Notes under the pieces: model-generated
Database searches by the model: none
What the model was told of the DNA's origin: nothing
Seen by the model: the letters and a program-made list of their open reading frames with translations, nothing else
In this document: positions 16,782 to 37,252 of the stretch, piece after piece
Position numbering within the stretch: the first letter of the stretch is position 1
Layout: every line of letters begins with the position of its first letter
Source of the DNA: Hydrogenophaga intermedia
GTDB lineage: Bacteria; Pseudomonadota; Alphaproteobacteria; Rhizobiales; Beijerinckiaceae
Length of the DNA stretch: 64,000 nucleotides
Reading direction: 5' to 3'
Assembly (NCBI GenBank): GCA_943370645.1
Contig: CALRRR020000012.1
Span: 7,852 to 71,851, forward strand
Made by a program: the position numbers and the translations under genes

Positions 16782-17537
16782 ATGACCATCACCATCCTGC
16801 CGGAACTGGCAGCCCTGTTCATGCTCGTGTTTGCGCGCGTGGGCACGATGGTGATGCTGATGCCCGGACTCGGCGAGCGCTTCGTGCTCAACCGGGCCAA
16901 GCTGGCGATCGCGGTGTTTCTGGCGTTGCTGCTGATGCCCGTCGCCCGGCCACTGATGCAGGTGCCATCCGATCCGGGTCTCTTGATGAGCCTGCTGATC
17001 TCGGAAATCCTGATCGGGGCCATCCTCGGGCTGTCGGCACGGCTGATCATGGCTGCGCTCCAGACGGCGGGCGTGATCATGGCCAACCAGATCGGACTTG
17101 GTTTCGCCACGGCGGTCGATCCGGCTATGGGGCAGCAGAACCCATCGATCGGCAACTTCCTGTCGATCCTCGGGATCACGCTGGTGCTGGTCATGGACCT
17201 GCACCATCTCGCCATTGCGGCGATCCACAACAGCTACACGATGCTGCCGCCCGGCGCTTACCCGTCCGTGGGCGATGCCTCGGCGCTCGGCCTGCGGGCG
17301 GTGAGCAAGGGCTTTTCGATCGCGGTGCAGATGTCGGCCCCGTTCATCGTGTTCGGCCTGCTGTTCAATCTCGGGCTCGGTGTGCTCGCGCGGCTGATGC
17401 CGCAGTTCCAGGTGTTCTTCCTCGGAGCGCCGGCCTCGATCCTGATCGGCATGGCGATTCTCGCCGCCATCGTCTCTGTCATGATGACCGTGTTCCTCGG
17501 CGAACTCGGCAGCTTCCTGAAACAGCTGGCGGGGTGA
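16782..17537 (+). CDS. fliR: Flagellar export apparatus protein FliR
   Basis: 251-aa polytopic membrane protein. Its position between fliQ and flhB and its FliR-like profile support the call. Confidence 0.85.
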   Translation: MTITILPELAALFMLVFARVGTMVMLMPGLGERFVLNRAKLAIAVFLALLLMPVARPLMQVPSDPGLLMSLLISEILIGAILGLSARLIMAALQTAGVIMANQIGLGFATAVDPAMGQQNPSIGNFLSILGITLVLVMDLHHLAIAAIHNSYTMLPPGAYPSVGDASALGLRAVSKGFSIAVQMSAPFIVFGLLFNLGLGVLARLMPQFQVFFLGAPASILIGMAILAAIVSVMMTVFLGELGSFLKQLAG

Positions 17538-17543
17538 CCGCCC

Positions 17544-18611
17544 ATGGCTGACGAAAAGGATGATGACGACAAGACAGAAGAGCCGACACAGCGAAAGCTG
17601 GAAGAGGCCATCAAGAAGGGCGACGTTGCCAAGAGCATCGAACTCAACACGTTCTTCATCCTGGGCGGGTTCACCCTCGCGATCCTGATCGCCGGTGGCC
17701 ATGCCGTGCGCGAGACGGCGCTGAGCATGCGCAGCTTCCTGATGAATGCCCATCAGGTGCCGTCCAGCGGGATGACCATGCAATGGGTCTCGGCGCGCGG
17801 CTTCGGCGAGGCGATGCTGGCCTCTGGCGGGATCTTCGGCATCGTGATGGTCGCGGCGCTGATCGGCTGCCTGATCCAGCACAGGCCGCTGTGGACCTTC
17901 GAGCCGATGACGCCGAAGTTGAGCAAGCTGTCGCTGATGCAGGGCGCCAAGCGCATCTTCGGCAAGGAAGCCATCGCCAACTTCATCAAGGGCATGCTCA
18001 AGGTCGTCATCGTCGGCACGGTGGTCGGCGTTGTGCTGTGGCGCGAGCATGACCGGCTCGACGCCTTCACCCGCATGGACATCGCCGCCATCCTGCCAGC
18101 CACCGCCACCATCGTGATCAAGATGATGATTGGTGTGCTGGCGATCTATTTCTTCGTCGGCGTGGGCGACTTCGTCTACCAGCGCTTCACCTGGATGAAG
18201 CGCCAGCGCATGACCCGCGAGGAGCTGAAGCAGGAATACAAGGACACGGACGGCAACCCCGAGATCAAGGCCAAGCTGCGCCAGATCCGTACCCAGCGCC
18301 TGCGCCGCAGGATGATGGCCCAGGTTCCGGAAGCCACTGTGATCGTCACCAACCCGACCCACTATGCCGTCGCGCTGAAATACGAGGCCGGCATGGACGC
18401 GCCGATCTGCGTGGCCAAGGGCGTCGATGCGATGGCGCTGAAAATCCGCGAAGTGGCCAACGATCACGACGTGCCGATCATCGAGAACCCGCCGCTGGCT
18501 CGCGCGCTGCACGCATCGGTCGATCTGGACGAAACCGTACCGGTGGAGCACTACAAGGCTGTGGCAGAGGTGATCGGTTTTGTCTTGCGCACCCGGCGCA
18601 GGCGCGCCTAA
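17544..18611 (+). CDS. flhB: Flagellar export switch protein FlhB
   Basis: 355 aa with the N-terminal DKTEEPTQRKLEEAIKKGDVAKS and the autocleavage motif NPTHYAVAL. Confidence 0.92.
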   Translation: MADEKDDDDKTEEPTQRKLEEAIKKGDVAKSIELNTFFILGGFTLAILIAGGHAVRETALSMRSFLMNAHQVPSSGMTMQWVSARGFGEAMLASGGIFGIVMVAALIGCLIQHRPLWTFEPMTPKLSKLSLMQGAKRIFGKEAIANFIKGMLKVVIVGTVVGVVLWREHDRLDAFTRMDIAAILPATATIVIKMMIGVLAIYFFVGVGDFVYQRFTWMKRQRMTREELKQEYKDTDGNPEIKAKLRQIRTQRLRRRMMAQVPEATVIVTNPTHYAVALKYEAGMDAPICVAKGVDAMALKIREVANDHDVPIIENPPLARALHASVDLDETVPVEHYKAVAEVIGFVLRTRRRRA

Positions 18612-18685
18612 CTGACGGTGCAGGCTCGCTTTGCCCCGCGATGCGCGAACCATGAAGACTCCCAAGGCATGAAGGCTCGCACGGA

Positions 18686-21235
18686 ATGACGCAGGCAACC
18701 AAGGAGCAGCAGGTGCGCAAAGGCCAGCCGGTCACCGGCGGGGCTGCCATCGACCGGTCCGACAAGCCGGGCAGCATCGGCCTGCTGATGCTGGTGGCCG
18801 GCACCATCGTGGGGGCCGCCATTGCGCTTGGCTTTCTGGCCAACGAGTGGGCGCAGCCGCTGATCCTCGCGTTCCTTGCGCTGTTGTCGGTGATCGGGGT
18901 GTTCTGTCTGTTCGCGCTGTCGATCGGGCTGATCCAGTTCTCCGGGCGCTCGGGCCGCAATGACCTGACCCGCACCATCGTCGATGAGGCCGAGGATGGG
19001 GTCATCGTCACCGAGGCTGACAACCGCATCATCTATGCCAACCGGGCCTATCAGGCCCTCTCCGGTGCCAGCACAGTGGCGGATATCCGGCCGGTCGAAC
19101 GGCTGTTCGCAGGTGGCTCCGATGTCTCGGAGGTCGTCTACCGGCTGGCGCTGGCGGCGCGCGAAGGGCGCTCGCAGACCGACGAGATCAGGTTGTCGCC
19201 GCCGCTGACCGGCAAGGGCGATGCCGGCTGGTACCGGGTTTCGGTGAGCATGACGACGCGCGCCGACGGCAAGACCGCGACCTTGTGGCGCGTGCGCGAC
19301 ATCACGCGCGAGCGCATCGGCCAGGAAAACGTCTTTCAGGAACTGCAGCAGGCAATCGACTTTCTCGATCATGCGCCTGCCGGCTTCATGTCGATCGATC
19401 CGGATGGCTCGGTGCCCTATCTCAATGCCACGCTGGCCGGGTGGCTCGATTACGATCTGGCCAAGGTCGGATCGGGGGGCTTGCTGCTGAAGGACATCGC
19501 GCCGCTCAACGCAGTGGCGCTGGTCTCGGCGATCAGTGGCAAGCCGGGCGAGGTTCGCACGGAAGTGGTCGATGTCGACCTGCGCCGGCGCAATGGCCAG
19601 TCCGTGCCGGTGCGCCTGCACCACGAGGTTGCCTTCGGGCAGGACGGAACGCCGGGCGCGTCGCGGACGCTGGTCCTGAACCGCACGCCGGGTGAGGCGG
19701 GTGCTGATGCCGGCACCGCTGCCGAGGCGCGGCTGGCCCGGTTCTTCAACAACACCCCGATGGCGATTGCCACCGTGGGGGCTGATGGCCGGATCGTGCG
19801 CTCGAATGCAGCGTTCGCGCGGTTGTCGGTCGGCATTCCCGCCACCGGGCTGCGCAACCTGATCCGGGACGCTGACTGGGCTGCGCTCCAGCCGGCGCTG
19901 AGCGCCGCCGGCAGTGGCAGCGCCGACATCAAGCCGCTGGACGTGTCGATCGTCGGGGAGGGGGACCGGTCGGCGAGGCTGTTCCTTGCGCCCGTGTTCG
20001 ATGGCGAGGGCGGCGAGGAAAAGGCCATTGTCTACGCGCTGGAGACCACCTCCGAGCGCAAGCTGAAGGAGAATATCGACCAGGCGCAGAAGATGCAGGC
20101 TGTCGGCCAGCTCGCCGGCGGCATCGCGCACGATTTCAACAACGTGCTGCAGGTCATCATCAACGCCTCGGATTTCCTGCTGGCCAGCCACAAGCCCACC
20201 GATCCGTCCTTCCAGGACATCATGCAGATCAAGCAGAACGGCCTGCGTGCCGCTTCGCTGGTGCGGCAGCTGCTGGCCTTCTCGCGCCGCCAGACCCTGC
20301 GCCCGCAGGTGCTGGAATACGGCGATGTGCTCTCCGACCTGTCGCTGATGCTGAAACGCGTGGTCGGCGATACGATCGGCCTCGACGTGCGACACGGCCG
20401 CGACCTGTGGCCGATCAAGGCCGATGTGGGCCAGCTTGAACAGGTCATCGTCAACCTCGCGGTGAATGCACGCGATGCGATGAAGCCGGGTGGCAAGCTG
20501 ACCTTGCGCACCCGCAATGTGACCGAGGCTGAATCGCGCAGCTTCAACTATGCCTCGATGCCGAAGGGCGATTATGTGCTGCTCGAGGTGGAGGATACCG
20601 GCTCCGGCATCCCGCCCGAATTGCTCGACAAGATCTTCGAGCCGTTCTTCACCACCAAGGATGTCGGCAAGGGCACCGGGCTCGGGCTGTCGATGGTCTA
20701 CGGCATCGTCAAGCAGACGGGCGGGTTCGTGTTCGCCGAGTCGGTTGTCGGGCAGGGCACGACCTTCCGCATCTTCCTGCCGCGCCATGTCGCCACCGCC
20801 GAGGAAGAGGCCGCCGAGGCCAAGGCCAAGATCGCCGCTGCCGCGCCCACGGCTGCGGTCGATCACACGGGGGCCGGCACCATCCTGCTGGTCGAGGATG
20901 AGGACGCCGTGCGCGCCCTCAATGCCCGCATGCTGATCAGCCGCGGCTACACCGTGATCGAGGCTGATTCAGGGGTCGCGGCCTTGCGCGAACTTGAAGC
21001 CCATGGCCGCGATGTCGATCTCGTGGTCTCGGATGTGGTGATGCCCGAGATGGACGGCCCGACACTTCTGGGCGAGTTGCGCAAGCGCAATCCCAAGACC
21101 CGTTTCGTCTTTGTCTCCGGCTATGCCGAAGAGGCCTTCAAGAAGAACCTTCCCGAGGGCGAGAGCTTCCACTTCCTGCCCAAGCCCTTCACCATGAAAC
21201 AACTGGTGGAGACGGTGAAGGCGGCGATGGGGTGA
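18686..21235 (+). CDS. cckA: Hybrid sensor histidine kinase / response regulator, CckA-like cell-cycle kinase
   Basis: 849 aa with 2 N-terminal TM segments and PAS regions. It has H-box [14 protein letters not shown], the ATPase motif [18 protein letters not shown], and a C-terminal receiver ([11 protein letters not shown]...[14 protein letters not shown]...KPF). The architecture and the HDFNN H-box match alphaproteobacterial CckA. Confidence 0.7.
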
Positions 21236-21283
21236 GAGTGCGGTCGCAGATGGCTTGACTATGTAAAGGACAAAACACTTACG

Positions 21284-21940
21284 ATGCCCGTTCCCGCCCA
21301 GCCCAAAATTTACCACATCGTCCACTCCGACCGTTTGGCATCAATCATCGCGGACGGTTTCCTGTGGTCGGATGCGGCAATGGTTCAGCGCCAGGGCGTC
21401 GGCACAACGATTGGCATGAGCAATATCAAGGCTCGTCGTCTGAACGAGCTCAGCTTGAGCTGTTATCCGAACCTGCGCGTTGGGCATTGCACACCGTTCT
21501 ATTTTTGTTCTAGATCGGTGATATTGTACCTTATCTACCGAAGGAACGAGGAACTCACCTACAAAGGCGGGCAGGAACCGATCGTCCACTTCGAGGCTGA
21601 TCTCCACGCGACGATTGCTTGGGCGCAGCAGAACAATCGGCGCTGGGCGTTTACCCTGTCGAATGCTGGTGCGTATTACTTTGAAGACCGGTCGGACATC
21701 GCCCACCTCGGCGACATCAATTGGGATGCCGTTGAAGCGCGCCAATGGTCCGGAAATGGCGTTTCGCGGTCGGTGAAGGAAGGCAAGCAGGCAGAATTCC
21801 TGATTGAACATGCGTTCCCCTGGCAACTCGTTGAGCGGATTGGCGTCTTCTCGCAGGGATACGTGCAACCTTTATCGCAGGCGATGCAAGGCGCAGCCCA
21901 TAGGCCGAGGATCGAAATAAGAAGAGATTGGTACTATTGA
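21284..21940 (+). CDS. darT: DarT-family (DUF4433) DNA ADP-ribosyltransferase toxin
   Basis: 218 aa. The family-type motifs are KIYHIVH near the N-terminus, HCTPFYFCSRSVILYLIY, FTLSNAGAYY, and KQAEFLIEHAFPW carrying the expected catalytic Glu. A macrodomain gene follows 12 nt downstream. Confidence 0.8.
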   Translation: MPVPAQPKIYHIVHSDRLASIIADGFLWSDAAMVQRQGVGTTIGMSNIKARRLNELSLSCYPNLRVGHCTPFYFCSRSVILYLIYRRNEELTYKGGQEPIVHFEADLHATIAWAQQNNRRWAFTLSNAGAYYFEDRSDIAHLGDINWDAVEARQWSGNGVSRSVKEGKQAEFLIEHAFPWQLVERIGVFSQGYVQPLSQAMQGAAHRPRIEIRRDWYY

Positions 21941-21952
21941 GGGAGGATGGCG

Positions 21953-22990
21953 ATGATCGAGTTCAAAACAGGTGACATCTTGAGGGCGGACGCGGAAGCG
22001 CTCGTCAACACGGTCAACTGCGTCGGCATCATGGGCCGCGGCATCGCCCTTCAGTTCAAGAACGTCTTCCCGGCGAACTTTAAGGCTTACGAAGCTGCCT
22101 GCGCGCGCGACGAGGTGCAGCCGGGCAAGATGTTCGTGTTCGAGACGCAGACGCTGACCAACCCCAAGTTCATCATCAACTTCCCGACAAAGCGCCACTG
22201 GCGCGGCAAGAGCCGGATGGAAGACATCGACTCGGGCCTCAAGGCTTTGGTCGAAGAGATCCGCACCCGCAGTATTCGGTCAATCGCGATCCCGCCGCTG
22301 GGCAGCGGCCTCGGCGGGCTTAACTGGGCCGAAGTGCGCCCTCGCATCGTCGAGGCCCTGCATGGCCTCAATGACCTTCAAGTGATGGTGTTCGAGCCGA
22401 ACAGCGCCCCCGTAGGCACCAAGTCGCGCGAGGTTCCAAACATGACGGCGGGCCGCGCCGCACTCGTCGTGCTGATGCACCGCTATCTCGGCGGATTGAT
22501 GGACCCGTTCGTGACGCTGATCGAAGTTCAGAAGCTGATGTATTTCATGCAGGAAGCGGGCGAGCCGCTGCGCCTGAACTATATCAAGCACCATTACGGC
22601 CCCTATGCAGACAACCTGCGGCATGTCTTGACCAAGATCGAAGGCCACCTCGTGTCGGGCTATCACGACGGCGGCGACGCTCCCGAAAAGCAGCTTGAAC
22701 TCGTGCCTGGTGCGGTGAAGGACGCGGAGGCCTTCTTGAGCGACGACGGCGACACCAAGACCCGTTTCGACCGGGTAGGCAAGCTGGTTGAAGGCTTCGA
22801 AACTCCGTTCGGGCTGGAACTGCTTGCGACGGTCCATTGGGTCGCAAGTCGAGAGAGCGCGATAAGCCCCGAGGATGCTATCGCCAAGGTTTACGCTTGG
22901 AACGATCGCAAGAAGCGCTTTTCGCCGCGCCAGATCGGCATTGCGTTCAATACGCTTCATGAAAAAGACTGGCTGAACCGTCGACTATGA
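21953..22990 (+). CDS. darG: DarG-family antitoxin: N-terminal macrodomain (ADP-ribosyl glycohydrolase) plus a C-terminal toxin-binding-type domain
   Basis: The macrodomain signatures are GDILRADAEALVNTVNCVGIMGRGIALQFK and IAIPPLGSGLGGL. I prefer ATG 21953 (6 nt after GGGAGG) to the track start at 21947. The C-terminal ~190 aa contains EVQKLMYFMQEAGEPLRLNYIKHHYGPY. Confidence 0.85.
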   Translation: MIEFKTGDILRADAEALVNTVNCVGIMGRGIALQFKNVFPANFKAYEAACARDEVQPGKMFVFETQTLTNPKFIINFPTKRHWRGKSRMEDIDSGLKALVEEIRTRSIRSIAIPPLGSGLGGLNWAEVRPRIVEALHGLNDLQVMVFEPNSAPVGTKSREVPNMTAGRAALVVLMHRYLGGLMDPFVTLIEVQKLMYFMQEAGEPLRLNYIKHHYGPYADNLRHVLTKIEGHLVSGYHDGGDAPEKQLELVPGAVKDAEAFLSDDGDTKTRFDRVGKLVEGFETPFGLELLATVHWVASRESAISPEDAIAKVYAWNDRKKRFSPRQIGIAFNTLHEKDWLNRRL

Positions 22991-23009
22991 TCGACTGACG
23001 GTCGCCTTT

Positions 23010-23543
23010 TCATCCATCTAGAGCGCGCAACTCCCCAGCAAACCTTTTCCAGTTCGCCACGTAGCCGGCGGCGCTGGCTGTCAGCCTTGCGGCGGCGGCA
23101 TCATCGAGGGTGCGGATGGCGCGGGCCGGCGAGCCGACGATGAGGGAATTGTCGGGGAATTCCTTGCCTTCGGTGACCAGCGCATTGGCGCCGACGAGGC
23201 TGTTCTTTCCGATTTTCGCGCCATTCAGGATCGTCGCGCCCATGCCGACGAGGCTGTTGTCGCCGATGGTGCAGCCGTGCAGGATCGCGTGGTGGCCGAT
23301 GGTGCAATCGCTGCCGATGCTCAGCGGGAAGCCCATGTCGGTATGCAGCATCGCATTTTCCTGGATGTTGCTGCGTGCGCCGACCGAGATCAGTTCGTTG
23401 TCACCGCGCAGGACAGCGCCGAACCAGATGCCGACATCCTCTGCCAGCAGAATGTTGCCGATGACATGGGCACCGGGTGCGATCCAGAACCGGCCTGCCG
23501 GCGGCAATTGCGGAGCAAGGTCGGCGAGGGCGTAGATCGGCAT
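23010..23543 (-). CDS. Gamma-carbonic-anhydrase-like / hexapeptide-repeat (LbH) protein
   Basis: 177 aa, reading FWIAPGAHVIGNILLAEDVGIWFGAVLRGDNELISVGARSNIQENAMLH, with a repeated hexapeptide pattern. Confidence 0.8.
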   Translation of the reverse strand: MPIYALADLAPQLPPAGRFWIAPGAHVIGNILLAEDVGIWFGAVLRGDNELISVGARSNIQENAMLHTDMGFPLSIGSDCTIGHHAILHGCTIGDNSLVGMGATILNGAKIGKNSLVGANALVTEGKEFPDNSLIVGSPARAIRTLDDAAAARLTASAAGYVANWKRFAGELRALDG

Positions 23544-37164: not shown

Positions 37165-37252
37165 TGGTGCGGACAGCGGGGGTCGAACCCGCACGGTTTT
37201 TGAGGCCGAGGGATTTTAAGTCCCTTGCGTCTACCAGTTTCGCCATGTCCGC
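37165..37252 (-). tRNA. tRNA-Leu (anticodon UAA), CCA encoded
   Basis: The minus strand reads GCGGACATGGCGAAACTGGTAGACGCAAGGGACTTAAAATCCCTCGGCCTCAAAAACCGTGCGGGTTCGACCCCCGCTGTCCGCACCA. It has a 7-bp acceptor stem (GCGGACA/TGTCCGC), anticodon arm AGGGA-CTTAAAA-TCCCT, a long variable arm, and T-arm GCGGG-TTCGACC-CCCGC. Confidence 0.9.

What the first reader, a model, noticed from the sequence alone, without database searches (positions are those of the whole stretch)
21284..22990. DarT-DarG (ADP-ribosyltransferase toxin plus macrodomain antitoxin) module: the one clear defense/TA island in the window
ORF 21284-21940 carries the DarT/DUF4433 hallmarks. These are KIYHIVH near the N-terminus, HCTPFYFCSRSVILYLIY, FTLSNA, and KQAEFLIEHAFPW with the expected catalytic Glu.

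Twelve nt downstream, ORF 21953-22990 opens with a macrodomain (NTVNCVGIMGRGIALQFK, IAIPPLGSGLGGL) and continues into a second domain of about 190 aa. This is the DarG layout.

DarTG is an already described toxin-antitoxin and abortive-infection anti-phage system, so the family is not new. Three things deserve a look:
- Whether this DarT is thymidine-specific (DarT2-like, as the macrodomain partner suggests) or has another target.
- The DarG C-terminal domain contains EVQKLMYFMQEAGEPLRLNYIKHHYGPY. This reminds me of the KLxYF...G.PL...Y.GP pattern of DUF4065/Panacea-type antitoxin domains. If correct, neutralisation would be dual-mode, enzymatic plus sequestering.
- Its unusual chromosomal placement, covered in the next finding.
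Basis: partly seen in the sequence, partly recalled or inferred. Interest (0 to 1): 0.75.

Follow-up and report, generated by a model that had tools for sequence, protein, structure and literature searches.

The report
DarTG toxin-antitoxin cassette, mutated toxin
This is an ordinary, already described DarT-DarG DNA ADP-ribosylating toxin-antitoxin/anti-phage cassette inserted just after the cell-cycle kinase gene cckA of a Bosea-like bacterium, and its only unusual feature is that the toxin carries an isoleucine in place of an otherwise invariant active-site methionine, so it may be weakened or dead.

Summary
darT (21284-21940) and darG (21953-22990), 12 nt apart, score far above the curated cut-offs of the NCBIfam DarT and DarG equivalog models, Pfam DarT/Macro and PADLOC DarT/DarG.

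- **Subtype.** The toxin is DarT2-type, i.e. thymidine-type. Its model superposes on Thermus DarT2 (TM 0.87-0.90) but poorly on E. coli DarT1 (0.53). H11, R52, Y73 and E171 are present, and the partner is a macrodomain with the catalytic K80.
- **DarG C-terminal domain.** It matches the DarT-binding domain of M. tuberculosis DarG (7YK3, TM 0.83). Pfam's DUF4065 model itself does not hit. This link and dual-mode neutralisation are both already published.
- **New detail.** DarT residue 80 is Ile (ATA). All 200 relatives sampled, plus the Thermus, M. tuberculosis and Citrobacter DarTs, have Met (ATG). This is Thermus M78, an essential catalytic residue, so the toxin is probably attenuated.
- **Placement.** The cassette has lower GC3 than its neighbours, no mobility genes and no flanking repeats. 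It sits exactly where synteny with Bosea relatives ends, at the cckA stop codon.

This is a known family, of low to moderate interest.

The parts
21284..21940 (+). darT: DarT2-type ssDNA ADP-ribosyltransferase toxin, 218 aa
   Evidence: Pfam PF14487 4.7e-62, NCBIfam toxin_DarT equivalog 231 bits (cut-off 150), PADLOC DarT 1.4e-59. phmmer to Thermus DarT 7omv gives 1.6e-27. The AF2 model (pLDDT 88) has TM 0.87-0.90 to 7omy/7omv, 0.80-0.82 to Mtb DarT 7yk3 and 0.53 to DarT1 8baq.
21521..21523 (+). Codon ATA = Ile80, at the position of the invariant catalytic Met (Thermus DarT M78)
   Evidence: Met is found in 120/120 closest protein clusters and 80/80 metagenome loci at 58-88% identity. Thermus, Mtb and a Citrobacter plasmid DarT also have Met. 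The relatives read ATG at DNA level. It is the only residue of the protein that departs from a >=90% conserved column.
21794..21796 (+). Codon of Glu171, the ART catalytic glutamate (Thermus E160). The other conserved active-site residues are H11 (21314-21316), R52 (21437-21439), Y73 (21500-21502) and N127 (21662-21664).
   Evidence: MAFFT mapping onto Thermus DarT residues H13, R51, Y71, H119 and E160. N127 equals the Asn of Mtb DarT and of 32/33 aligned sequences.
21942..21946 (+). Shine-Dalgarno GGAGG for darG, 6 nt before the ATG at 21953
   Evidence: Read directly from the sequence.
21953..22990 (+). darG: antitoxin, 345 aa, made of a macrodomain plus a DarT-binding domain
   Evidence: NCBIfam antitoxin_DarG equivalog 475 bits (cut-off 250), PADLOC DarG 3.4e-140.
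21953..22411 (+). DarG macrodomain (residues 1-153), the ADP-ribosyl-thymidine glycohydrolase. The catalytic Lys80 codon is at 22190-22192.
   Evidence: Pfam Macro 7.8e-25. phmmer 1.2e-51 and 4.2e-51 to the DarG macrodomains 5m3i (Mtb) and 5m31 (T. aquaticus) in ungapped alignments. N22, K80, H82, W83, G119 and G121 are conserved; K29 is Arg here.
22442..22981 (+). DarG C-terminal DarT-binding domain (residues about 164-343)
   Evidence: phmmer 1.9e-27 to 7yk3_B. The AF2 model (pLDDT 90.5) matches 7yk3_B/D with TM 0.82-0.83, E 1e-10.
22469..22804 (+). Core of the C-terminal domain that aligns with the Panacea/DUF4065 antitoxin domain (DarG residues 173-284 to PanA 11-113)
   Evidence: hhalign of a diverse DarG profile against a PanA (PF13274) profile gives Prob 90.9-93.6%, E 1.2e-6 to 2.1e-7, over 95 columns. 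Column shuffles reach at most score 17 against 49 observed.
21236..21283 (+). 48-nt spacer between the cckA stop codon and the darT start. It is the left edge of the cassette and holds an AAGGA at 21266-21270.
   Evidence: DNA homology with three Bosea relatives ends at 21236-21238. No consensus promoter or terminator was found here.
22988..23004 (+). Terminator-like hairpin overlapping the darG stop codon, in the 19-nt gap before the convergent gamma-carbonic-anhydrase-like gene (23010-23543, minus strand)
   Evidence: Consensus scan. The number of such sites in the region is no higher than in shuffles, so the evidence is weak.

Best explanation
This is a two-gene DarTG2 toxin-antitoxin / abortive-infection cassette acquired horizontally by a Bosea-like alphaproteobacterium. 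It lies immediately 3' of the conserved fliR-flhB-cckA cluster.

By homology, DarT uses NAD+ to ADP-ribosylate thymidine N3 in single-stranded DNA at a short motif, which blocks replication. DarG neutralises it in two ways. Its N-terminal macrodomain (catalytic Lys80) removes the ADP-ribose from DNA. Its C-terminal helical domain is a relative of the Panacea/DUF4065 antitoxin domain and binds DarT directly to inhibit it.

In this copy the toxin carries Ile (ATA) instead of the family-invariant Met (ATG) that stabilises the oxocarbenium intermediate. The toxin is therefore most likely strongly attenuated or inactive, while the antitoxin looks intact.

What is shown here: family membership, fold, residue conservation, domain homology, and the compositional and syntenic evidence for insertion. 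What is inferred: enzymatic activity, thymidine specificity, the effect of M80I, and anti-phage function.

Sub-claim confidences: DarTG2 identity about 0.97; DarG C-domain homologous to Panacea about 0.85; toxin attenuated by M80I about 0.55-0.6. The overall confidence given (0.85) is for the statement as a DarTG2 cassette with a dual-mode antitoxin and a suspect toxin allele.
For: - **Family models.** Both proteins score far above the curated cut-offs.
- **Solved relatives.** DarT matches 7omv at 1.6e-27, the macrodomain matches 5m3i/5m31 at about 1e-51, and the C-domain matches 7yk3_B at 1.9e-27.
- **Models.** DarT has TM 0.87-0.90 to Thermus DarT2 against 0.53 to DarT1. The DarG C-domain has TM 0.83 to 7yk3.
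- **Residues.** H11, R52, Y73, N127 and E171 are present in DarT. N22, K80, H82, W83 and G119 are present in DarG.
- **Panacea link.** hhalign gives Prob 93.6%, E 2.1e-7 and Prob 90.9%, E 1.2e-6. Shuffle controls average 13.5 +/- 2 with a maximum of 17.3, against 49.3 observed. A Panacea protein ranks 5th among the BFVD fold hits. The same homology is stated in PMC13621843.
- **I80.** Met is found in 120/120 plus 80/80 relatives and in the Thermus, Mtb and Citrobacter DarTs. It is a single G-to-A change from ATG, and ATA is absent from fliR, flhB and cckA. M78 is described as a catalytic residue (PMC9967889). The equivalent DarT1 M71A mutant is inactive and non-toxic (PMC11543638). EPEC DarT2 M84L behaved like catalytically dead E170A (PMC13368585).
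- **Horizontal origin.** GC3 is 0.66/0.78 against about 0.86 for neighbours. Homology with the Bosea relatives stops at the cckA stop codon. No DarTG follows cckA in any of 80 related loci. Relatives at 89-95% identity sit in unrelated contexts, including inside a type I R-M operon. Similar modules occur on alphaproteobacterial plasmids.
Against: - No experiment was possible, so toxicity, the DNA target and phage defence are inferred.
- Met-to-Ile is conservative in size and hydrophobicity and could retain partial activity.
- The published Met-to-Leu result is in a different DarT2, in an already attenuated G49D background. Its equivalence to position 80 here is inferred from residue offsets, not from an alignment I could make.
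- The only other assembly carrying I80 is a 3.7-kb contig 100% identical to the window. It may come from the same population or the same reads, so a sequencing or assembly error is not formally excluded.
- Pfam PF13274 itself gives no hit on this DarG or on 67 diverse DarG-C proteins. A profile built from close relatives alone gave only Prob 13%.
Confidence: 0.85

Rival explanations
1. This is a fully active canonical DarTG2 system. Ile80 is tolerated, and the cassette works as a normal toxin-antitoxin / abortive-infection defence.
For: All other catalytic residues and the whole fold are intact. DarG is intact, as would be expected if it still has a dangerous toxin to control. darT has no frameshifts or stop codons and no other unusual substitutions. 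Ile is chemically close to Met.
Against: Met is invariant in more than 200 relatives down to 29-36% identity, and it is conserved even in DarT1. Removing the sulfur abolished or nearly abolished activity in two published cases: M71A in DarT1, and M84L in EPEC DarT2.
Confidence: 0.3
2. This is a decaying toxin-antitoxin remnant. The toxin has been inactivated by a point mutation, and the cassette is on its way to loss or persists only because DarG is harmless.
For: There is a unique substitution at a catalytic residue, encoded by a rare codon one transition away from ATG, which points to a recent event. Other natural catalytic-site variants exist in close DarT clusters: E171K in 1 of 120 and H11R in 2 of 120. 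The cassette is isolated and lacks the type I R-M partners seen around its closest relative.
Against: No other degenerative change is seen in either gene. Every other conserved position of DarT matches the consensus, and DarG shows one odd residue, D339. This rival overlaps the attenuation part of the best explanation and differs only in degree, dead rather than weakened.
Confidence: 0.3
3. This is a DarTG1-type (guanosine-specific) or otherwise retargeted DarT, because residue 127 is Asn as in DarT1 N104 rather than His as in Thermus H119.
For: N127 aligns with Thermus H119. DarT1 uses an Asn at the equivalent position to coordinate guanine.
Against: - Asn is the usual residue of this clade and is also found in M. 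tuberculosis DarT, which is paired with a macrodomain DarG.
- The antitoxin is a K80 macrodomain, not a NADAR.
- Y73 is present where DarT1 has Ser, and there is no Asp after R52.
- The fold gives TM 0.53 and rmsd 7.2 A to DarT1, against TM 0.87-0.90 to DarT2.
Confidence: 0.03

Closest known systems
Thermus aquaticus / Thermus sp. 2.9 DarTG (DarT2 structures 7OMV-7ON0; DarG macrodomain 5M31)
   Same: The two-gene layout is the same. DarT is 36% identical over its full length, with model TM 0.87-0.90. H, R, Y and E catalytic residues are shared. The DarG macrodomain is 54% identical, with K80, N22, H82, W83 and G119.
   Different: Thermus M78 is Ile80 here. Thermus H119 is Asn127 here, and H65 is Gly67. 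The host is an alphaproteobacterium rather than Thermus. The target motif (TNTC in Thermus) cannot be predicted for this copy.
Mycobacterium tuberculosis DarT-DarG (Rv0059/Rv0060; complex 7YK3, macrodomain 5M3I)
   Same: The DarG C-terminal DarT-binding domain matches (phmmer 1.9e-27, model TM 0.83). Asn occupies the ARTT base-contacting position in both. The antitoxin is dual-mode in both.
   Different: DarT identity is only about 29%. The Mtb toxin keeps the catalytic Met. Mtb darTG sits next to dnaB (my own knowledge, not checked here), whereas this copy sits after cckA.
Alphaproteobacterial DarTG copies already in databases (Mesorhizobium, Agrobacterium vitis, Rhizobium leguminosarum, Bradyrhizobium; plasmids of Paracoccus, Xanthobacter, Methylobacterium)
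   Same: DarT is 80-95% identical, and the proteins are annotated as DUF4433/DarT plus a macro domain protein. They have the same length and operon layout.
   Different: All have Met at position 80. Their genomic contexts differ: inside type I R-M operons, between housekeeping genes, or on plasmids.
Panacea (DUF4065, PF13274) antitoxins, e.g. PanA gp9 of Burkholderia prophage phi52237, and SocA
   Same: The core of about 100 residues is homologous, including the KLxYF ... G-PL ... hhalign gives Prob 91-94%. Both neutralise a toxin by direct binding.
   Different: PanA proteins are stand-alone proteins of about 150 aa paired with many different toxins. Here the domain is fused behind a macrodomain and extended at the C-terminus. 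The Pfam PF13274 model does not detect it. Fold similarity to a phage Panacea model is weak (TM 0.35-0.46, E 0.73).
DarTG1 (DarT1 + NADAR, E. coli C7; 8BAQ)
   Same: Both have a DarT-family ART toxin with an R...M...E active site and a hydrolase antitoxin that reverses DNA base ADP-ribosylation.
   Different: The antitoxin here is a macrodomain, not a NADAR. Y73 replaces the DarT1 Ser, and the extra catalytic Asp is absent. The fold gives TM only 0.53.

Membership tests
DarTG2 (DarT2 toxin + macrodomain DarG) | Toxin matches the DarT/DUF4433 family models above curated thresholds | tested here: met
   PF14487 209.7 bits (cut-off 22.5); NF048013 equivalog 231.2 bits (cut-off 150); PADLOC DarT 1.4e-59.
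DarTG2 (DarT2 toxin + macrodomain DarG) | ART fold of the DarT2 type with the H-Y-E triad and the catalytic Arg (Thermus H13, Y71, E160, R51) | tested here: met
   H11, Y73, E171 and R52 align. The model has TM 0.87-0.90 to 7omy/7omv.
DarTG2 (DarT2 toxin + macrodomain DarG) | Active-site Met that stabilises the oxocarbenium intermediate (Thermus M78; DarT1 M71) | tested here: not met
   The window has Ile80 (ATA). Met is found in 120/120 and 80/80 relatives and in the Thermus, Mtb and Citrobacter DarTs. This lowers the claim of an active toxin, not the claim of homology.
DarTG2 (DarT2 toxin + macrodomain DarG) | Antitoxin with a TARG1-like macrodomain carrying the catalytic Lys80 | tested here: met
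   Macro PF01661 7.8e-25; 5m31/5m3i at about 1e-51; K80, N22, H82, W83 and G119 present.
DarTG2 (DarT2 toxin + macrodomain DarG) | DarG C-terminal DarT-binding domain | tested here: met
   7yk3_B phmmer 1.9e-27. Foldseek TM 0.82-0.83, E 1e-10. The NF048014 equivalog is matched end to end.
DarTG2 (DarT2 toxin + macrodomain DarG) | Toxin gene first, antitoxin gene immediately downstream on the same strand | tested here: met
   darT 21284-21940 and darG 21953-22990 are separated by a 12-nt spacer containing a Shine-Dalgarno sequence.
DarTG2 (DarT2 toxin + macrodomain DarG) | Toxicity of DarT, ADP-ribosylation of thymidine in ssDNA, reversal by DarG, protection against phage | not testable with these tools
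   These need expression, biochemical and phage assays.
DarTG1 (DarT1 + NADAR) | NADAR-domain antitoxin, and a DarT1 active site (Ser in place of the H-Y-E Tyr, Asp two residues after the catalytic Arg) | tested here: not met
   There is no NADAR hit and the antitoxin is a macrodomain. The toxin has Y73 and R52-L53-N54 (features taken from PMC11543638). TM to 8baq is 0.53.
Panacea / DUF4065 (PF13274) antitoxin domain | Match to the Pfam PF13274 model at its gathering threshold | tested here: not met
   There is no hit at E<=10 on the C-domain alone. None of 68 diverse DarG-C-containing proteins hits PF13274 at E<=1. No PHROG link was found.
Panacea / DUF4065 (PF13274) antitoxin domain | Detectable homology to bona fide Panacea antitoxins | tested here: met
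   hhalign of the DarG-C profile against a PanA profile (46 sequences, all PF13274) gives Prob 93.6%, E 2.1e-7 and Prob 90.9%, E 1.2e-6. Structural support is weak. DarG-C is best filed as a distant relative within the same superfamily, not as a member of the Pfam family as currently defined.

The most novel reading that the evidence does not exclude
The Met80-to-Ile change may not be decay. It could be a naturally tuned, low-activity DarT2 allele kept with an intact DarG directly behind cckA, possibly co-transcribed with it, since no promoter or terminator was found in the 48-nt spacer. Such an allele would act as a mild, reversible DNA ADP-ribosylation brake on replication linked to the cell cycle. 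This would resemble the regulatory role reported for DarT in M. tuberculosis, rather than a suicide toxin.
Probability: 0.06. Interest if true: 0.7.

Novelty: new member of a known kind. Interest (0 to 1): 0.3.

Why it matters
In practical terms this is a correct annotation of a known defence/toxin-antitoxin system in a poorly sampled Bosea-like genome. Three points have some value beyond that.

1. It may be a natural allele of DarT2 with the catalytic Met replaced. Engineered attenuated DarT2 variants, including a Met-to-Leu variant, are currently used for 'append' genome editing. A naturally occurring M-to-I allele is therefore a ready-made candidate to test. It is also a caution that HMM-based defence-system calls do not guarantee an active toxin.

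2. There is independent, controlled profile-profile support that the DarT-binding domain of DarG belongs with the hyperpromiscuous Panacea antitoxin domain. This ties DarG to a wider antitoxin network.

3. It is an example of a two-gene defence cassette dropped, without any mobility genes, exactly at the 3' end of an essential, highly syntenic gene cluster.

Tried and rejected
- **Direct Pfam test for DUF4065.** I ran it on the whole DarG, on the C-domain alone at E<=10, and on 68 diverse DarG-C proteins. All were negative.
- **PHROGs.** No Panacea-like family hit the C-domain.
- **Foldseek of the C-domain against viral models.** Only sub-threshold hits were found, the best at E 0.07; a Panacea protein ranked 5th with E 0.73. 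This is suggestive, not decisive.
- **hhalign with the first DarG-C alignment of close relatives.** It gave Prob 7-13%. It became convincing only after diversifying the profile.
- **Empty-site analysis.** I looked for a cckA locus without the cassette but otherwise syntenic. None exists among the 80 loci fetched, because the region downstream of cckA differs in every Bosea relative. A clean insertion boundary on the right side could therefore not be defined.
- **Flanking direct or inverted repeats (att sites or target-site duplications).** Nothing above chance was found. There is no tRNA nearby; the only one is at 37165.
- **Promoter scan.** No consensus sigma-70 site was found.
- **Retrieving EPEC DarT2 to map M84/M86 onto this protein.** A blastn search with a Citrobacter darTG found nothing in E. 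coli genomes, and the Citrobacter DarT is not numbered like EPEC. The M84 = M78 equivalence therefore rests on the offset between R57 and R51.
- **Schuller et al. 2021 (Nature).** The paper is not held in the library. Its residue roles are cited through PMC9967889 and PMC11543638.
- **DarT1/guanosine specificity suggested by N127.** Rejected; see the rival explanations.
Full report
**Observation**

darT is 21284-21940 (218 aa). darG is 21953-22990 (345 aa); a longer reading from 21947 is possible but unlikely.

The 21953 start is supported in three ways. GGAGG at 21942-21946 lies 6 nt before it. The NCBIfam, PADLOC and PDB alignments all begin at that Met. A gene call on an identical public contig also gives 345 aa. 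All quoted peptide motifs are present.

The region has lower G+C than the window (0.56-0.60 against 0.655). GC3 is 0.66 for darT and 0.78 for darG, against 0.86-0.88 for fliR, flhB and cckA.

**Family assignment**

- DarT: Pfam PF14487 E 4.7e-62, covering the whole model. NCBIfam 'toxin_DarT' equivalog 231 bits against a cut-off of 150. PADLOC DarT 1.4e-59.
- DarG: Pfam Macro 7.8e-25. NCBIfam 'antitoxin_DarG' equivalog 475 bits against a cut-off of 250, matched end to end. PADLOC DarG 3.4e-140.
- Solved structures, by sequence: DarT matches Thermus sp. 2.9 DarT (7omv, 1.6e-27) and M. tuberculosis DarT (7yk3_A, 1.2e-10). The macrodomain matches the DarG macrodomains 5m3i and 5m31 (about 1e-51, ungapped). 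The C-terminal half matches the DarG C-terminal domain in the Mtb DarT-DarG complex (7yk3_B, 1.9e-27).
- AlphaFold models: DarT (pLDDT 88) has TM 0.87-0.90 to Thermus DarT2 and 0.80-0.82 to Mtb DarT. The DarG C-domain (pLDDT 90.5) has TM 0.82-0.83 to 7yk3 B/D.

**Which DarT?**

Published work separates two subfamilies. DarTG2 is thymidine-specific with a macrodomain DarG that has catalytic K80. DarTG1 is guanosine-specific with a NADAR antitoxin. DarT1 has Ser where DarT2 has the nicotinamide-stacking Tyr, an extra catalytic Asp two residues after the Arg, and Asn instead of the thymine-contacting His119 of Thermus (PMC11543638).

Here the partner is a macrodomain with K80, N22, H82, W83 and G119. 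The toxin has H11, R52 (followed by L-N, with no Asp), Y73 and E171. The model fits DarT1 (8baq) poorly, with TM 0.53 and rmsd 7.2 A.

Residue 127 is Asn rather than His. However, Asn is the rule in this clade (32/33 aligned, 120/120 close clusters) and is also found in Mtb DarT. It does not point to DarT1.

The protein is thus DarT2-type. Thymidine specificity is inferred, and the 4-base target motif cannot be predicted.

**An overlooked substitution**

I mapped the Thermus catalytic residues as listed in PMC9967889: H13, R51, Y71, M78, H119, E160. This showed that M78 corresponds to Ile80 in the window.

- It is the only position in the whole protein where the window departs from a column at least 90% conserved among its 120 closest 90%-identity clusters, which are 120/120 Met.
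- All 80 metagenomic relatives at 58-88% identity also have Met. The search pattern ended one residue before this site, so it did not bias the count.
- The Thermus, Mtb and Citrobacter plasmid DarTs have Met too.
- At DNA level the relatives read ATG and the window reads ATA. ATA is a codon not used at all in fliR, flhB or cckA. This looks like a recent single G-to-A transition.

M78 is proposed to stabilise the oxocarbenium intermediate. The equivalent M71A mutant inactivates DarT1, and the authors describe the same residue set as critical in DarT2. In EPEC DarT2, M84L behaved like catalytically dead E170A in a G49D background (PMC13368585). M84 is probably the same position, judging by the R57/R51 offset, but I could not align the sequence.

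I conclude that the toxin is probably attenuated or inactive, with confidence about 0.55-0.6. Three caveats apply. Ile is a conservative change. The one other contig with I80 is 100% identical to the window over 3.7 kb and may not be independent. Nothing was measured. Close DarT clusters also include rare E171K and H11R variants, so natural toxin-crippling alleles do occur.

**The DarG C-terminal domain and Panacea**

PF13274 gives no hit on DarG, none on its C-domain at E<=10, and none on 68 diverse DarG-C-containing proteins. PHROGs gives nothing.

I therefore built a direct profile-profile test.

1. The seed was PanA gp9 of Burkholderia prophage phi52237, a DUF4065 protein from a PanAT pair for which the Panacea paper reports stable toxin-antitoxin complex formation (PMC8832971).
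2. It was aligned with 45 homologues, all annotated PF13274.
3. Against the first DarG-C alignment, made of close relatives with Neff 1.9, hhalign gave only Prob 13%, P 0.002.
4. I then built a diverse DarG-C profile from 67 representatives of 50%-identity clusters found by an exhaustive HMMER search (2,072 hits at E<=1e-3) plus Mtb DarG. These are 37-62% identical to the window.
5. With that profile, hhalign gives Prob 93.6%, E 2.1e-7 and score 49.3 over 95 columns.
6. The session's own hhalign tool, run on the full-length alignment, gives Prob 90.9%, E 1.2e-6, aligning DarG 173-284 to PanA 11-113.

The controls support this. Sixty column shuffles of the PanA alignment score 13.5 +/- 2.0 with a maximum of 17.3. 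The reversed alignment scores 15.3. Shuffles that keep 10-column blocks intact, and so keep the motif, reach 37.3.

The aligned core contains exactly the KLxYF ... G-PL ... Fold support is weak: a 'SocA-like Panacea' phage protein ranks 5th in BFVD with E 0.73 and TM 0.35-0.46.

A 2026 paper already states that DUF4065 proteins are homologous to the DarG C-domain (PMC13621843). Dual-mode neutralisation, enzymatic plus binding, was shown in 2016 (PMC5179494). The Panacea paper itself cites DarG as an example of dual antitoxin function. The idea is therefore supported but not new.

**Context**

The host is Bosea-like. Its CckA is 91% identical to that of a Bosea MAG and 71-72% to two other Bosea. 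The upstream neighbour is CckA by the NCBIfam equivalog (1162 bits). It is preceded by fliR and flhB, an arrangement conserved across many Hyphomicrobiales.

None of the 80 related cckA loci has DarT or DarG downstream. DNA homology with all three Bosea loci ends at the cckA stop codon, window 21236-21238. Each Bosea relative has different genes after cckA, so no clean empty site could be recovered.

The downstream neighbours are a convergent gamma-carbonic-anhydrase-like hexapeptide protein and alpha/beta hydrolases. No integrase, transposase, tRNA or flanking repeat accompanies the cassette.

Close relatives of the cassette sit elsewhere.
- The 95%-identical DarT lies inside a type I R-M operon, hsdM-hsdS-darT-darG-hsdR. 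This is the arrangement noted in the original DarTG paper.
- A 91% relative lies between housekeeping genes.
- Related modules occur on Paracoccus, Xanthobacter, Bradyrhizobium, Methylobacterium, Agrobacterium and Rhizobium plasmids.

The cassette is thus a mobile two-gene unit that landed at a variable junction. No promoter or terminator was detected in the 48-nt spacer after cckA. Read-through from cckA is possible but untested.

**Verdict**

This is a genuine but ordinary DarTG2 module that standard annotation would name correctly.

The extra findings are the unique Met80Ile change at a catalytic position and controlled evidence for the DarG-C/Panacea relationship. Novelty is 'new member of a known kind', and interest is about 0.3.

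Noticed in passing
L168:2425-4702 (Logan SRR14932654 contig); protein P0317: The DarG C-terminal (DarT-binding, Panacea-like) domain also occurs fused behind a NADAR domain (P0317: NADAR 21-166, DarG-C 229-417). That gene starts 2 nt after a PF24390 'PRTase-CE' gene, with no DarT. This looks like a different toxin paired with a hybrid NADAR plus Panacea-like antitoxin.
   Followed up: partly
proteins P0295, P0322, P0421 (representatives): Further domain combinations of the DarG-C domain were seen: DarG-C + Nmad2 (P0295), Macro + DarG-C + HHH_3 (P0322), and Macro + DarG-C + UvrD_C (P0421). This modularity is in keeping with the promiscuity described for Panacea.
   Followed up: no
L165:3-6956 (JGI 3300037310 contig): The closest DarT relative (95% identity) is embedded in a type I restriction-modification operon, hsdM-hsdS-darT-darG-hsdR, with overlapping or abutting genes. 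The window's copy has no hsd genes next to it.
   Followed up: yes
window 16782-21235 and loci L003-L082: fliR-flhB-cckA is a widely conserved gene order in Hyphomicrobiales, but the DNA immediately 3' of cckA differs in every Bosea relative examined. For example, a chemoreceptor-like gene follows in L003. The cckA 3' end therefore behaves as a variable junction.
   Followed up: partly
proteins P0235, P0211/P0216 region (close DarT clusters): Natural variants at other catalytic positions exist among close DarT relatives: E171K in one cluster and H11R in two of 120. This suggests that toxin-disabling alleles recur in this clade.
   Followed up: no
window 22967-22969 (DarG residue 339): DarG has Asp where 113 of 118 relatives have Gly, near the extreme C-terminus. 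It is the only unusual residue found in DarG over the covered part. Its significance is unknown.
   Followed up: no
phage records H16 (Thermus phage phiMa MH673674.1, 27026-28063) and many jumbo/T-even-like phages: A full-length DarG homologue (47% identity, 99% coverage) is encoded by Thermus phage phiMa. Stand-alone DarG-like macrodomains occur in 549 phage records. This is consistent with published phage anti-DarTG counter-defence.
   Followed up: no
window 23190-23287: A 44-nt direct repeat (77% identity, 54-nt spacing) lies inside the hexapeptide-repeat gene. It simply reflects the protein's left-handed beta-helix repeats and is not a mobile-element feature.
   Followed up: yes
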